From Pocillopora damicornis (taxonomy: Eukaryota), in contig NW_020847747.1 of the NCBI RefSeq assembly GCF_003704095.1, positions 62,001 through 126,000 of the forward strand: a DNA stretch of 64,000 nucleotides, in the 5' to 3' direction. Under the pieces are notes generated by a model. That model saw nothing but the letters and a program-made list of their open reading frames with translations. It searched no databases and was not told the DNA's origin. The translations under genes and the position numbers were made by a program. The stretch's first letter is position 1; each line of letters starts with the position of its first letter. Shown in pieces: positions 2,078 through 45,121 of this stretch.

Positions 2078-3955
2078 CTAATCTTCTGAAGGCTTTGACT
2101 CATCAGCCTCCTCAGCAACTGATGGTTCAGCTTCCTCGGCAACTGATGGTTCAGCATCACCATCACCTTTATCTTCCTCCCCTGCTGGAGCTTCCTGTTT
2201 TTCATCTACTTCCCCTTTCTCCTCTGATGCTACCTCTTCATTACCTTGCGGTAAAGACTCCGAGCTTTTCAGCGCCTTTACCTGCTCCCTTGCCTTATGA
2301 CCCCTGAAACTTGCCTGAATCTTAACTACAGCACCTTGCAGATCTGGATCATTCATATCAATATCTATCTGTTCTTCCTCACCTTCTACCTTTGCCTCAT
2401 CTGCTGCACTAGCTTGCTCATCAGTAATTACCTCTCCCTCTTTCTCAACCTTATCTTCTTTATCAGCATCCTCAGTAACTTCATCAGCATCTTTGCCAAT
2501 GGCTTCATCAACAGCTGCTTCTTCTGTTACAGCCTCTTCAACTTGAACAACTTCTGTCTTCTCCTTGTCAACTGCCTCTCCTCCTTCAGCACCATCAGGT
2601 TGTCCTTCCTGCTCCACAGGCTCCTGCACATCAGCTTCAGCATCTTCAGTTTTTGCAGCTGCCAAGTCATCAGGTTGTGTATCTGTGGCTTGCTCGTCAG
2701 TGGGTTGGTCCTCTGTAGCTTGCCCCTCAGTATCTTGCTCATCAATAGCATCTTCCTGCTTCACTGGTTTTTCAGCAGCTTCTGCCTCTCCTGCCTGGAC
2801 AACCTCATTATCAGGTACCTCTACAGAGACAACTTCTTCTGGGGCGTCTTCAGCAGCATCTACACTCACTGACACTTGCACATCGCTTTTTGAAGCCTTT
2901 ATCTCCTTTATCTGCTCACGTGCTTTGTGCCCACGGAAACTTGCCTGAATTTTGACAGCTGCAGTTTCCTCATCTTTGTGCTTCTTCACGTCCTCCCGAG
3001 CTTTGTGTCCTCGGAAGCTTGCTTGAATTTTAGTCGCAGCTTTCTGCACATCAGGGTCATTCATATCAATGTCAACTTCCTCTCCTCTCTGCAGCTTTTC
3101 CATTTGATCACCCTTCTTTGCATTGTCTTTGCCAGTCTCTGGAAGTTTGTAAATCACACAAAAGAATGAGACATAAATATATTTCCAGAATAGAAACTCT
3201 ATTTTAAGGACATAATGAATTTTGTTTGGAGCGATTTGAAGGCGAAATAGTCCTCAAAGTTGTGTTCGAGTGATCTTCTTCAATTTTATCATTGTGATAC
3301 CAAAATTGTAAAACTACACATGAAAAATCTTTAAATTTACATTCCTTTCACAAGCTAAATTATTAACGCTTCCTTCCATAAAATGGAAAGTATATTAAAA
3401 TTTATGGCAGTGAGTTTGTATCAGAATATAGTTTCCCACAATTTCAATATTCAATATTATTCCACTTAGAAGTATATATTTAATTTTTTAAAGCTTTCAA
3501 TAAAGATTTACTGCTTTGCAAATAGGTGGAAGGCAGGGAAAAGAAAAGGCCCTTAACATTAACGGGCGGAAGTTCTGCAAAATTTCCTTCAGAAGGAGGG
3601 AAATTAAAGACTAGGAAGAGCGATTAATAAACGAGTATTATCCTGTGTAATATTCCAAGTCAGGATGCAAATAGTTAGAACGGATCCGGCCGAAAAAAAA
3701 AACGGAGCACTGAATATTCAATTTAGCTTGCATTTTCAGCTAGCGTCTGGATTGTTTACACAGCCATCTAAATACTGCAGCCACCAAAAGCGAAAGCGTA
3801 CCTTCACGGATTAGAAGCTGGTTTTTGAAATACTGTGCGGCAAAGTTGATGATGTCCTCTGGTTGCTCTCGCAAAACTTCCCTCGCCAAACCCTCCAATA
3901 AGTTTTGAAAGCCCGGTGGAACACGCAGCTTCATAGGAGCGTATTGCACCGCCAT
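2078..3955 (-). CDS. SPA17: Sperm surface protein Sp17-like: N-terminal RIIa dimerisation/docking domain, three IQ calmodulin-binding motifs, long acidic low-complexity region
   Basis: Exon 1 is 3955-3802 (MAVQYAPMKLRVPPGFQNLLEGLAREVLREQPEDIINFAAQYF, the Sp17 D/D signature) with a phase-1 GTACGC donor. Exon 2 is 3138-2078 after a TTCCAG acceptor in matching phase and contains three KIQASFRGHKARE motifs. Confidence 0.85.
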
Positions 3956-4060
3956 GTTAATTGTTCAAATCCTTCGTAGAAACAGATGGAAACAAGGAAA
4001 GATCGATCAAATACAGTGCAATCTAATTGCACTAATGCGCTACATTAGAATTATGGCTAA

Positions 4061-4074
4061 GTCTCTATGACGAC
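4061..4074. promoter_or_regulatory. Putative RFX X-box upstream of the SPA17-like gene
   Basis: GTCTCTATGACGAC resembles the X-box palindrome GTTGCCATGGCAAC and lies about 105 bp upstream of the ATG of a cilia/flagella-family gene. Confidence 0.4.
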
Positions 4075-42163: not shown

Positions 42164-43201
42164 ACAACATTGAAGTCAACTGTGGACTGAGTGAAATAAA
42201 TGAACCAATAAATCACCTTCGTTAAAAATGGAAAAAAATTCACACATAACATCATCAAACACTAGGTCTTGCACATAAAGCATATCAGTTGCTCTTCTCT
42301 ACAATTTACTAAATCTCCAAGAATAAACAAAAAAATTTGGAGAAGTTTCCTATGAAAAAAGGGGATAAATCAAATTAGACTTATATTTGACAAACAGCTG
42401 GATATTCTTTTAAACTATCAAGTTTAGATNNNNNNNNNNNNNNNNNNNNNNNNNNNNNNNNNNNNNNNNNNNNNNNNNNNNNNNNNNNNNNNNNNNNNNN
42501 NNNNNNNNNNNNNNNNNNNNNNNNNNNNNNNNNNNNNNNNNNNNNNNNNNNNNNNNNNNNNNNNNNNNNNNNNNNNNNNNNNNNNNNNNNNNNNNNNNNN
42601 NNNNNNNNNNNNNNNNNNNNNNNNNNNNNNNNNNNNNNNNNNNNNNNNNNNNNNNNNNNNNNNNNNNNNNNNNNNTCCACGAGAATGGGAACCAAAATTC
42701 AAACATCTTCAGATTTCTAGGGATAGGCCTTTCAGAAGTTTTCTTTCTTTTTCCTTAAATCAATCAATACTTGTTTTTTTCTTTGGAGCATTTAAGCTGT
42801 AAAATGAACATTGTACCTGTAGATTGTTAAGTGAGGTGACATTGGTCTGTTCAGACGAGTGTTTTTGGACCAAAAGTCTTCCTGCTTTCGAGCCAAGGAC
42901 GAAGTAGTGATTGGAATACTGAAAAACATTTAAAAAATAATGTTTGCATAATAATATTAAAAAAAAGAAACAAGGAGTAAAAGCAAAGTAAATTAAAGAC
43001 ATGCTAGATGACACACACAACTATCCAATCCACTTTACCTTCGCATTAGCGCAAATGAAGGTCGATAGCACCCTTTGACTAACACTGAAGGAAGCCTGGA
43101 TGAGTTCCTAAGTAATTAAGAAACGATTTAGCAACAACAGTGACTGAAAATCGACAAACATTTAGCTCGTAGTTTGCCACAAACCTCAGAAGAGCCGCCA
43201 T
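42164..43201 (-). CDS. SDHC: Succinate dehydrogenase cytochrome b560 subunit (5' part; the rest lies in the gap 42064-42163)
   Basis: Exons 43201-43185, 43107-43039, 42918-42817 and 42186-(42164), all joined by phase-2 GT-AG introns. They give MAALLRNSSRLPSVLVKGCYRPSFALMRSIPITTSSLARKQEDFWSKNTRLNRPMSPHLTIYSPQLTSML. FW.KN...NRP.SPH.TIY.PQLTSML is the SdhC signature. Confidence 0.95.
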
Positions 43202-43500
43202 CTTGCAATACTACCGTAATGTATTATGGGAAATATAGGAATGATGAAATTTTGTGAAAATGTTTTGGAGAAGAATCCAAGAAATTTGAAAGAAATTTGG
43301 AAGATACCAATAGCCTTCAAGTATTTTGCTTCTTGACCCCTAGGAGTATTTCCTTTTTTTTTCTTAAAAAAAGCAATAATGTTTTTATTTTGTGCACTAT
43401 TGCGTGTTACCCATGAATCTTTTAGAGCCTCGAATCGTGAGAAGCCGCACGCGTTACGTAAGAGAGAGCTGGGACGGAATTAAATTAGCAAGATGGCGGC
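43194..43500. promoter_or_regulatory. Bidirectional promoter of SDHC and SDHD flanked by inverted TISU/YY1 elements
   Basis: 291 bp lie between the ATGs. GCAAGATGGCGGC covers both start codons (43194-43206 minus, 43488-43500 plus). Also present are a ZNF143-like CCTATATTTCCCATAATAC (minus, about 43221-43239) and a TTACGTAA palindrome at 43454-43461. Confidence 0.8.
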
Positions 43501-45121
43501 GATATTTTACTCTCGTCTTTGTATAAGAAACAGTGGTCGTTTAGGTCAGAACTTACCATTCTTCGAATGTAAATATACGAGAGTTTTCGTAATTGATTCT
43601 TTGTTTTCTTATCAACAGCGAGTTCACTTGCACGGCCTGCTTTTGCTTCCTCGCCTAATTCTTGCTCACCGAGAGTTCAAAGTGGTAAGTTACACAATTT
43701 TGTCAGGAGTCTGAATGCTTAGAATGAGATCTTTACTTATTTTATTTGTATGATATTTTTGTTTTTTAGTGGTTTTCAAAAAGACAGTGCATTCCTCGGC
43801 AAATCGCAAAGCTGAGCTTGGTAAGTAAGAGAAAAGTTTTCGTGTACATTTTGTAGTGAAAATTTAAGATTTAACTCTTGTACAATGTTGTTATCATAAC
43901 AGAGGATAGGTAAGAAGTCTGAAATTGCTTCTTCAATAGCTAATTTTAAAAAAAATCTAAAAATATAGAGTAAAATAAGAGTTTATTCCCGATTTAAAAA
44001 ATTGCTGCTGTATTTTATTAAAGTGGGTATTCTGAGTATCATGTCAATTAATTAATATTCACTGACTGAAATAATTGTTTTAGTATTTACTAAGACGATT
44101 ATTGTTACAACCACTGAGCTATCAGAGAAACCAGACAAAATGTGCAGAGACAATATTCTTTTTTTTACCCTTATCAGAAATTTCCCCATCACAGCCATCA
44201 GCCCATTGGAAGGGAGAGCGCTATGTCAGTGTGGCACTGCTGACATTGATTCCTGCAGGAATCATTTACCCATCAGCTGTTGTGGACTGGGCTCTAGCAG
44301 TTGTTGTTCCTCTTCATAACCACTGGTAAGTCATCTGATCAGTAGTTCCTGTTTCCATAGCTCACTCTAGGTGAATCAATCATAGCCTTTGAAACTTCTG
44401 ATCAAGTATTGATATGTCCAAGCCTCTAGCACAGGAAATTTTTCTCACAAATTATTTGCTTTCAAAAATATTCCTTTCAATATGGAGTACCTTGACAATT
44501 TACATTCTCCATCAATTTATTGAAAAACTTTGAAAATTGTTAACTTAGAGAGTATTTGAATAACAATCTGTCTCAAAAATATTGCCAATGTGGCCAGAGA
44601 GAACTAAACTGCAAACAGCAGTTGTACTAGCTTGCGGTCTGATGTTGGCTTGCTGCAGTGTCCTGAACTTTATTATGATTGGTCAGTAAGCAGTTGATGT
44701 TACAAAATAAAATCAAAGTGTTCATGGTTTATCAATATTGTAGTGTCATGACAAGGAGTGGACTTTGAACTTTGAACGAGATCAGAAGACTTTTTGTAAT
44801 AGACAGGATTCCTTTGTGCTATCAAGAGTTTTAGTATATGTTTTGAAAAAAAGTTAAAAAACCAAGAGATTGTGAGGTCCTTTGTTGGTGTCAGCTAATT
44901 TCTGACAATCTCCATTATTCTGGACCTTAGCATAATATTCTTTATCAATCCACAGGGGTGTAGGCCAAGTGTTAACTGACTACATTCATGGTTCATCTAT
45001 GCCAAAAGTGGCCAAGGGAATTTGGCTGGCTGTGTCAATCTTACAGTTTATTGGCCTGTGTTATTTCAATTATGCTGATGTTGGAATCTGCAAAGCTGTC
45101 AGTATGATTTGGCATATGTAA
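43493..45121 (+). CDS. SDHD: Succinate dehydrogenase cytochrome b small subunit (CybS)
   Basis: Exons 43493-43544, 43619-43684, 43770-43820, 44178-44325 ([15 protein letters not shown]...LHNHW) and 44956-45121 ([12 protein letters not shown]...[19 protein letters not shown]). The haem His and the quinone-site DY motif are present. Confidence 0.96.

What the first reader, a model, noticed from the sequence alone, without database searches (positions are those of the whole stretch)
2078..45121. Ancient linkage block whose human orthologues are split between 1q23 and 11q23-24
Seen in sequence: SPA17, NCSTN, TMEM218, PAFAH1B2/3, SDHC and SDHD lie within 45 kb. Human map positions recalled from memory: NCSTN and SDHC at 1q23; SDHD and PAFAH1B2 at 11q23; SPA17 and TMEM218 at 11q24; PAFAH1B3 at 19q13. 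These regions are regarded as paralogous. Inference: the window preserves a pre-duplication segment, and the vertebrate separation of SDHC from SDHD arose by reciprocal loss after whole-genome duplication rather than by translocation.
Basis: partly seen in the sequence, partly recalled or inferred. Interest (0 to 1): 0.7.

Follow-up and report, generated by a model that had tools for sequence, protein, structure and literature searches.

The report
Coral piece of known ancestral chromosome
This stony-coral DNA holds all six named genes, including two respiratory-chain partner genes set head to head, but a sea anemone has them in another order, so it is likely an ordinary reshuffled piece of an already mapped ancestral animal chromosome whose genes vertebrates likely scattered by losing spare copies after genome doubling.

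Summary
All six genes are there. SDHC and SDHD are spliced and lie head to head, 287 bp start to start (SDHC's last exons fall in an assembly gap); 6 of 6 informative coral metagenome contigs (four sequence types) show the same pair. Human 1q23, 11q23-24 and 19q13 are a published paralogon (Lamb's 13, part of CLG A), so reciprocal loss after genome doubling is the likely reason SDHC and SDHD are apart in vertebrates (about 0.75), but that follows from known chromosome-scale synteny. A preserved segment is not supported: in Nematostella the nine genes lie in three clusters, SDHC and SDHD are 463 gene models apart, and PAFAH1B sits beside SIK3 as in human (recalled) but not in this coral. The coral flanks carry genes of a second linkage group, as expected on the cnidarian A2-N fused chromosome. 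Amphioxus, lamprey, sponge and placozoan could not be tested. The head-to-head pair was not found in print (4 searches); a key supplement was unreadable.

The parts
2078..3955 (-). SPA17: RIIa exon plus a long acidic exon with three IQ motifs
   Evidence: Pfam RIIa E 2e-13, IQ E 2e-17; Sp17 structures E 2e-14
4800..5870 (-).
   Evidence: XRCC2 structures E 1e-51; first exon read from sequence
5990..17698 (+). NCSTN (nicastrin), many exons, not all mapped
   Evidence: Pfam Ncstrn_small and Nicastrin on separate exons; last exon read
19568..21222 (+). TMEM218, three short exons
   Evidence: Pfam TMEM218_N E 3e-5, under the curated cut-off; exons read
22260..23297 (+).
   Evidence: NUDT18 structures E 1e-35, next Nudix E 5e-10
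30153..32489 (+). PAFAH1B2/3 pro-orthologue, five exons
   Evidence: PAF-AH Ib catalytic subunits E 9e-24; exons
33948..34916 (-). 322-codon open frame running into a gap, unassigned
   Evidence: no Pfam match
37039..38052 (-). C2H2 zinc-finger open frame, about 10 fingers
   Evidence: Pfam zf-C2H2 E 4e-51
40692..43272 (-). SDHC: start codon 43205, exons 1-3 and the start of exon 4 present; rest of the coding sequence in the gap 42064-42163; 40692-42063 likely 3' UTR
   Evidence: RNA joints and loose end; cytochrome b560 match; full exon sets in coral loci L009, L010, L011, L013, L015
43206..43492 (.). 287-bp gap between SDHC and SDHD start codons; predicted bidirectional promoter with three Staf/ZNF143-type sites kept in place in five coral sequences
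   Evidence: alignment; site scan and shuffles; site definition from PMC3082894 passage
43493..45121 (+). SDHD, five exons, 160 aa
   Evidence: CybS; four RNA joints; identical to P0027
46754..53064 (+). SLC22-type transporter next to SDHD; same neighbour in L013 and in Nematostella
   Evidence: Pfam Sugar_tr/MFS_1; L013; DHSDA NV2.22125 then S22FL NV2.22126

Best explanation
The window is a locally reshuffled stretch of a known ancestral animal chromosome (likely linkage group A2, fused with N in cnidarians), and vertebrates likely hold SDHC and SDHD on different chromosomes because each kept one copy on a different duplicate of that chromosome after whole-genome duplication. Shown: gene content, splicing, the head-to-head SDHC-SDHD pair in five coral sequence types, and that the human regions form one paralogon. 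Inferred: that paralogon 13 equals A2; that Nematostella gene numbers follow chromosome order; reciprocal loss itself; and that the 287-bp gap works as one two-way promoter that co-regulates the two membrane-anchor subunits of complex II and so keeps the pair together in corals. The local order is not an ancient fixed segment: inversions inside the chromosome have mixed it in the coral, the anemone or both.
For: Lamb's paralogon 13 rows place quadruplicate A at human 19:35-51 Mb, B at 11:111.9-134 Mb and C at 1:156.9-161.2 Mb, with A+B parting from C+D at the first duplication; CLG A = paralogons 3 + 13; CLG A = A1 + A2, and A2 is fused and mixed with N in all cnidarians. All nine named window genes have Nematostella matches within ids NV2.21456-22588 (0 of 1,000,000 random draws from 25,000 ids were that close), as sub-blocks NICA-XRCC2-x-C560, SP17-PA1B3...DHSD-S22FL and NUD18-x-TM218. 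The coral's left flank (cytidylyltransferase, FMO, POLA1, EF-hand genes, MORN protein) matches NV2.22295-22305 in the same run. Gene order inside linkage groups is largely scrambled between phyla and translocation runs at about 1% per 40 My (PMC8809688 passages). SDHC and SDHD lie on records of different length in two frogs, so the split is not mammal-specific. Promoter: invariant columns 22 of 30 and 54 of 90 at the two ends against 40 of 170 in the middle; three SBS-type sites against 0.36 expected, shuffle p 0.002-0.004 per sequence.
Against: No chordate outgroup, lamprey, sponge or placozoan was tested (one search found none of the genes in the amphioxus supplement). The Nematostella table gives no chromosome or strand and its names are best-BLAST labels; the TMEM218/NUDT18 ids lie about 650 ids before the rows I read; there are two SP17-like genes. 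XRCC2 and NUDT18 are linked to the block in coral and anemone yet map elsewhere in human (recalled), so genes do leave this group by translocation. SDHC (recalled 161.3 Mb) lies just beyond the last quadruplicate-C gene I read (ADAMTS4, 161.18 Mb). The interleaving of anemone clusters in the coral cannot be polarised, so the coral order may be the older one. The five promoter sequences are related and the shuffles keep only base composition; no transcription-start or reporter data.
Confidence: 0.75

Rival explanations
1. The SDHC-SDHD head-to-head pair, perhaps with part of the block, is ancestral to cnidarians and bilaterians, lasted until the vertebrate duplications and was then split by reciprocal loss; Nematostella broke it separately.
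For: Pair kept with a 266-287 bp gap in five coral sequence types. Two subunits of one complex are unlikely to meet by chance on a chromosome of over 1,000 genes (inference). Coral order interleaves the anemone clusters and 10 pairs of the nine genes lie within 16 Nematostella ids against about 0.9 expected, so a shared neighbourhood existed at least in the hexacoral ancestor or formed long ago in corals. HSPD1-HSPE1 is a precedent (PMC3514665 passages).
Against: 463 ids apart in Nematostella. No SDHC-SDHD row among the hits in Davila Lopez's supplements, which list TIMM8B-SDHD and COPA-NCSTN in vertebrates (only the first places of 'succinate' were shown). No run of four or more genes survives even between anthozoans and medusozoans (PMC10719294 passage). 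PAFAH1B-SIK3 adjacency suggests the coral order is derived at that junction (human adjacency recalled).
Confidence: 0.15
2. SDHC or SDHD moved by translocation in the vertebrate line and landed in a paralogous region by chance.
For: Genes do change chromosome (29-43% of orthologues between distant phyla); XRCC2 and NUDT18 of this same block appear to have done so (human positions recalled).
Against: Both genes lie in or at the edge of quadruplicates of the same paralogon as their coral neighbours; a random landing in 1 of 17 paralogons is improbable; no translocation is needed.
Confidence: 0.07
3. The SDHC-SDHD adjacency is an assembly artefact of a gappy scaffold.
For: Gaps at 42064-42163 and 42430-42675 lie inside SDHC, and its last exons are missing.
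Against: No gap between the two start codons; one DNA-like contig spans 42676-45660 (X20); 6 of 6 informative metagenome contigs have the pair; no second SDHC exon 3 or SDHD in G000.
Confidence: 0.01

Closest known systems
Ancestral linkage group A2 / paralogon 13 (Simakov 2022, PMC8809688; Lamb 2021, PMC8040251), on the cnidarian A2-N fused chromosome
   Same: Genes whose human orthologues lie at 1q23, 11q23-24 and 19q13 share one cnidarian chromosome, mixed with genes of a second group; order scrambled.
   Different: Those papers treat chromosomes and ohnolog families; the single-copy genes here were not in Lamb's supplement as held (0 hits for six names, file cut).
Conserved ancestral microsyntenic pairs with two-way promoters, e.g. 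HSPE1-HSPD1 (Irimia 2012, PMC3514665)
   Same: Two partner mitochondrial proteins, 5' to 5', under 1 kb apart, with conserved intergenic sequence.
   Different: HSPE1-HSPD1 spans Capsaspora to human; SDHC-SDHD is shown here only in stony corals and is absent in Nematostella and vertebrates.
Vertebrate TIMM8B-SDHD and COPA-NCSTN divergent pairs (Davila Lopez 2010, PMC2871058, supplement 6)
   Same: SDHD and NCSTN each share a short head-to-head gap with a housekeeping gene.
   Different: The partners in the coral are SDHC and XRCC2; no Tim8/10-family match lies on this contig (8 matches).

Membership tests
Paralogon 13 / ALG A2 macrosynteny | Human orthologues lie in the paralogon's quadruplicates | tested here: met
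   6 of 8 genes; intervals; SDHC, SDHD, PAFAH1B2 positions, the others recalled; XRCC2 and NUDT18 fall outside (recalled)
Paralogon 13 / ALG A2 macrosynteny | Orthologues share one chromosome in another pre-duplication animal | tested here: inconclusive
   Nematostella ids within 1,132 of each other and running with older scaffold numbers, but the table names no chromosome
Paralogon 13 / ALG A2 macrosynteny | Orthologues on the A2 chromosome of amphioxus, sea urchin, scallop and sponge | not testable with these tools
   No animal genomes to search besides G000; amphioxus supplement had none of the names
Paralogon 13 / ALG A2 macrosynteny | In cnidarians, mixed with genes of a second group (N) | tested here: met
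   POLA1, a PCYT1-like and a DNAJC3-like gene flank the window and lie in the same Nematostella run; their human X, 3q and 13q positions and assignment to N are recalled
Conserved ancestral microsyntenic block or pair | Same genes adjacent in distant phyla | tested here: not met
   SDHC-SDHD apart in Nematostella and on different records in two frogs; only sub-pairs shared with Nematostella
Bidirectional promoter pair | Divergent genes with starts under 1 kb apart | tested here: met
   266-287 bp between start codons in five coral sequence types; both genes spliced in RNA contigs
Bidirectional promoter pair | One element drives both genes; expression correlated | not testable with these tools
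   Only contigs were available; conserved SBS-type sites are a prediction

The most novel reading that the evidence does not exclude
SDHC and SDHD, the two membrane anchors of complex II, formed an operon-like head-to-head pair with one promoter in the ancestor of corals and bilaterians; stony corals keep it, and vertebrates lost it by dropping opposite halves from the duplicated chromosomes, which is why two paraganglioma genes now sit at 1q23 and 11q23.
Probability: 0.15. Interest if true: 0.55.

Novelty: new member of a known kind. Interest (0 to 1): 0.25.

Why it matters
It gives a concrete case of how single-copy human genes were likely dealt out among duplicated chromosomes, and records a coral SDHC-SDHD head-to-head pair that is a simple test case for co-regulation of complex II. 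The chromosome-scale story is already established, so the gain is small unless the pair proves to be shared with amphioxus, placozoans or sponges.

Tried and rejected
Pfam Sdh_cyt search of G000 missed the window's short SDHC exons and gave one weak hit, a potassium-channel-like locus read by eye: chance. Testing adjacency through consecutive accession numbers failed: SDHD accessions for about a dozen corals were obtained, but the SDHC search listed mostly vertebrates among its best 120 of 6,288 and none named as a coral, and the two coral exon fragments had no named members. Of 16 metagenome loci, 10 gave no test: L005, L006, L012, L014, L016 start at or inside SDHD, L008 has 1.7 kb before exon 4 without the earlier exons, and L017-L020 are short non-coral records. 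The AA[GAC]ATGGCG motif (YY1-like, recalled) occurs 4 times, always on a start codon, so coding constraint explains part of it; the ACTACAnnTCCC motif had 0 exact matches. A search for TMEM218 + SPA17 + 11q24 found no paper. No structure or complex prediction was run: complex II is solved and it would not bear on the claim.
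Full report
What the window is. The DNA is from a pocilloporid stony coral: SDHD relatives are 95% or more identical in Stylophora and Pocillopora, 86% in Porites and 79% in Acropora. It lies at G000:C4382:62001-126000.

Observation. Gene order is SPA17(-), XRCC2(-), NCSTN(+), TMEM218(+), NUDT18(+), PAFAH1B(+), unassigned ORF(-), zinc-finger ORF(-), SDHC(-), SDHD(+), SLC22(+). SDHC has only short exons here: RNA contigs join exons 1-2-3-4 and then run into the N gap, where the loose end continues the SDHC frame. SDHD's four introns are all spanned. 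G000 gave no second SDHC exon 3 or SDHD.

The SDHC-SDHD pair. The start codons point away from each other, 287 bp apart. A metagenome scan with an SDHD alignment gave 16 loci; 6 reach upstream of the SDHD start and all 6 carry SDHC on the other strand. They fall into four sequence types, 81-87% alike in their best alignments, with gaps of 266-276 bp; their SDHD sequences resemble the cluster holding an Oculina record, so they are probably other corals of the same broad clade. The two ends of the gap are conserved and the middle is not (22/30 and 54/90 against 40/170 invariant columns), and three sites that meet the published Staf/ZNF143 definition (PMC3082894, passages) keep their places in all five (0.36 expected per 287 bp; base-shuffle p 0.002-0.004). 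A shared two-way promoter is therefore predicted, not shown; the sequences are related and not independent.

The human side. Lamb 2021 (PMC8040251; abstract, passages, supplement rows and part 54) lists paralogon 13 with ohnologs at human 19:35-51 Mb, 11:111.9-134 Mb, 1:156.9-161.2 Mb and chromosomes 3/21/1, says CLG A = paralogons 3 + 13, and has quadruplicates A+B parting from C+D at the first duplication. SDHC is at 1q23.3 and SDHD at 11q23.1 (PMC8126684, passages). Simakov 2022 (PMC8809688, passages) splits CLG A into A1 and A2, finds A2 fused and mixed with N in all cnidarians, reports gene order largely scrambled between phyla, and puts translocation at about 1% per 40 My. I infer paralogon 13 = A2.

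The test in a second cnidarian. The Nematostella look-up table of Cole 2024 (PMC10946136, supplement 2: two searches, parts 65 and 66 of 77) gives NICA 22585, XRCC2 22586, C560 (SDHC) 22588; SP17-like-2 22110, PA1B3 22111, SIK3 22112, DHSD 22125, S22FL 22126; NUD18 21456, TM218 21458, SP17-like-1 21428. The ids run in step with the older scaffold-ordered numbers, so I read them as positional; the table gives no chromosome, and names are best-BLAST labels. All nine genes lie within 1,132 ids (0 of 1,000,000 random sets), which fits one chromosome, and 10 pairs lie within 16 ids against about 0.9 expected, which is real residual microsynteny with the coral. But the block is in three pieces and SDHC and SDHD are 463 ids apart. 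The rows between them mix names from paralogon 13 (SIK3, ARCN1, NDUFS2, USF2, BACE1, APLP1, PEX19, DCAF8) with names I recall on human X and 13q (POLA1, ERCC5, IPO5, ATP7B), as expected for A2-N. The coral's flanks show the same mix: the left 62 kb hold a cytidylyltransferase, FMO, POLA1, EF-hand genes and a MORN protein, matching NV2.22295-22305, and the right 130 kb hold a DNAJC3-like gene (54 flank frames picked from the 145 best-scoring).

Is the coral order the old one? One junction says no: Nematostella has PAFAH1B beside SIK3, as I recall for human, while none of 4 UBA_SIK3 matches in G000 is on this contig and no kinase motifs were found in the window or 192 kb of flank. Vertebrate SDHD and NCSTN are head to head with TIMM8B and COPA (PMC2871058 supplement 6 rows). 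No run of four or more genes is shared even between anthozoans and medusozoans (PMC10719294, passages). On the other side, the coral interleaves the anemone clusters, which cannot be polarised without an outgroup, and two subunits of one complex meeting head to head by chance is unlikely, so an older pair stays possible (0.15 that it reached the vertebrate stem).

Mechanism. Both genes rode on one ancestral chromosome; after the first vertebrate duplication each returned to single copy, SDHC surviving on the copy that became 1q23 and SDHD on the copy that became 11q23. This is inferred from positions and needs no adjacency. The split is shared by frogs (Pyxicephalus records of 61.4 and 49.5 Mb; Lithobates 232 and 186 Mb). 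Translocation would need a chance landing in the same paralogon, though XRCC2 and NUDT18 show that genes do leave the group.

Novelty. Four searches (listings only) found no paper on an animal SDHC-SDHD pair; Irimia 2012's main text has no SDH gene. The supplements of Irimia 2012 and Robert 2022, which list ancient pairs and blocks, were not seen and could hold these genes. The scan's own notes had nothing on this pair; one note on another piece of this genome pointed to Robert 2022.

Verdict. Observation confirmed; interpretation partly supported; an instance of known chromosome-scale synteny with one tidy coral gene pair. Interest 0.25.

Noticed in passing
window 43107-44168: One RNA contig (run X1) joins SDHC exon 2 through a GT-AG intron on the minus strand to sequence antisense to SDHD exon 4; seen in 1 of 8 runs laid. 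A rare overlapping SDHC isoform or an assembly quirk.
   Followed up: partly
window 5871-5989: XRCC2 and NCSTN are head to head about 120 bp apart with two SBS-type sites; they are also consecutive in Nematostella, so this pair is older than SDHC-SDHD on present evidence.
   Followed up: partly
window 2078-3253: SPA17 has a long acidic tail with three IQ motifs, far longer than the 151-residue Sp17 chain in the structure list; another 562-codon acidic frame lies just left of the window (L027:3-1688).
   Followed up: no
L023-L025 (G000:C4382 about 20-48 kb): Two EF-hand genes lie on the opposite strand between POLA1 exons; Nematostella lists DPOLA, CALM4, CALL3 consecutively: likely a conserved nested arrangement.
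   Followed up: no
window 58275-63925 and L028-L031: Tandem copies of a cysteine-rich, single-pass membrane protein family with no Pfam match.
   Followed up: no
window 33948-34916: 322-codon minus-strand frame with no Pfam match, ending in a gap.
   Followed up: no
window 42064-42163: The 100-N gap must hide more than 100 bases: it stands for at least two and a half SDHC coding exons with introns.
   Followed up: partly
L036:8689-8937: An exon-like frame matching the beta-type carbonic anhydrase family Pro_CA, E 9e-21.
   Followed up: no
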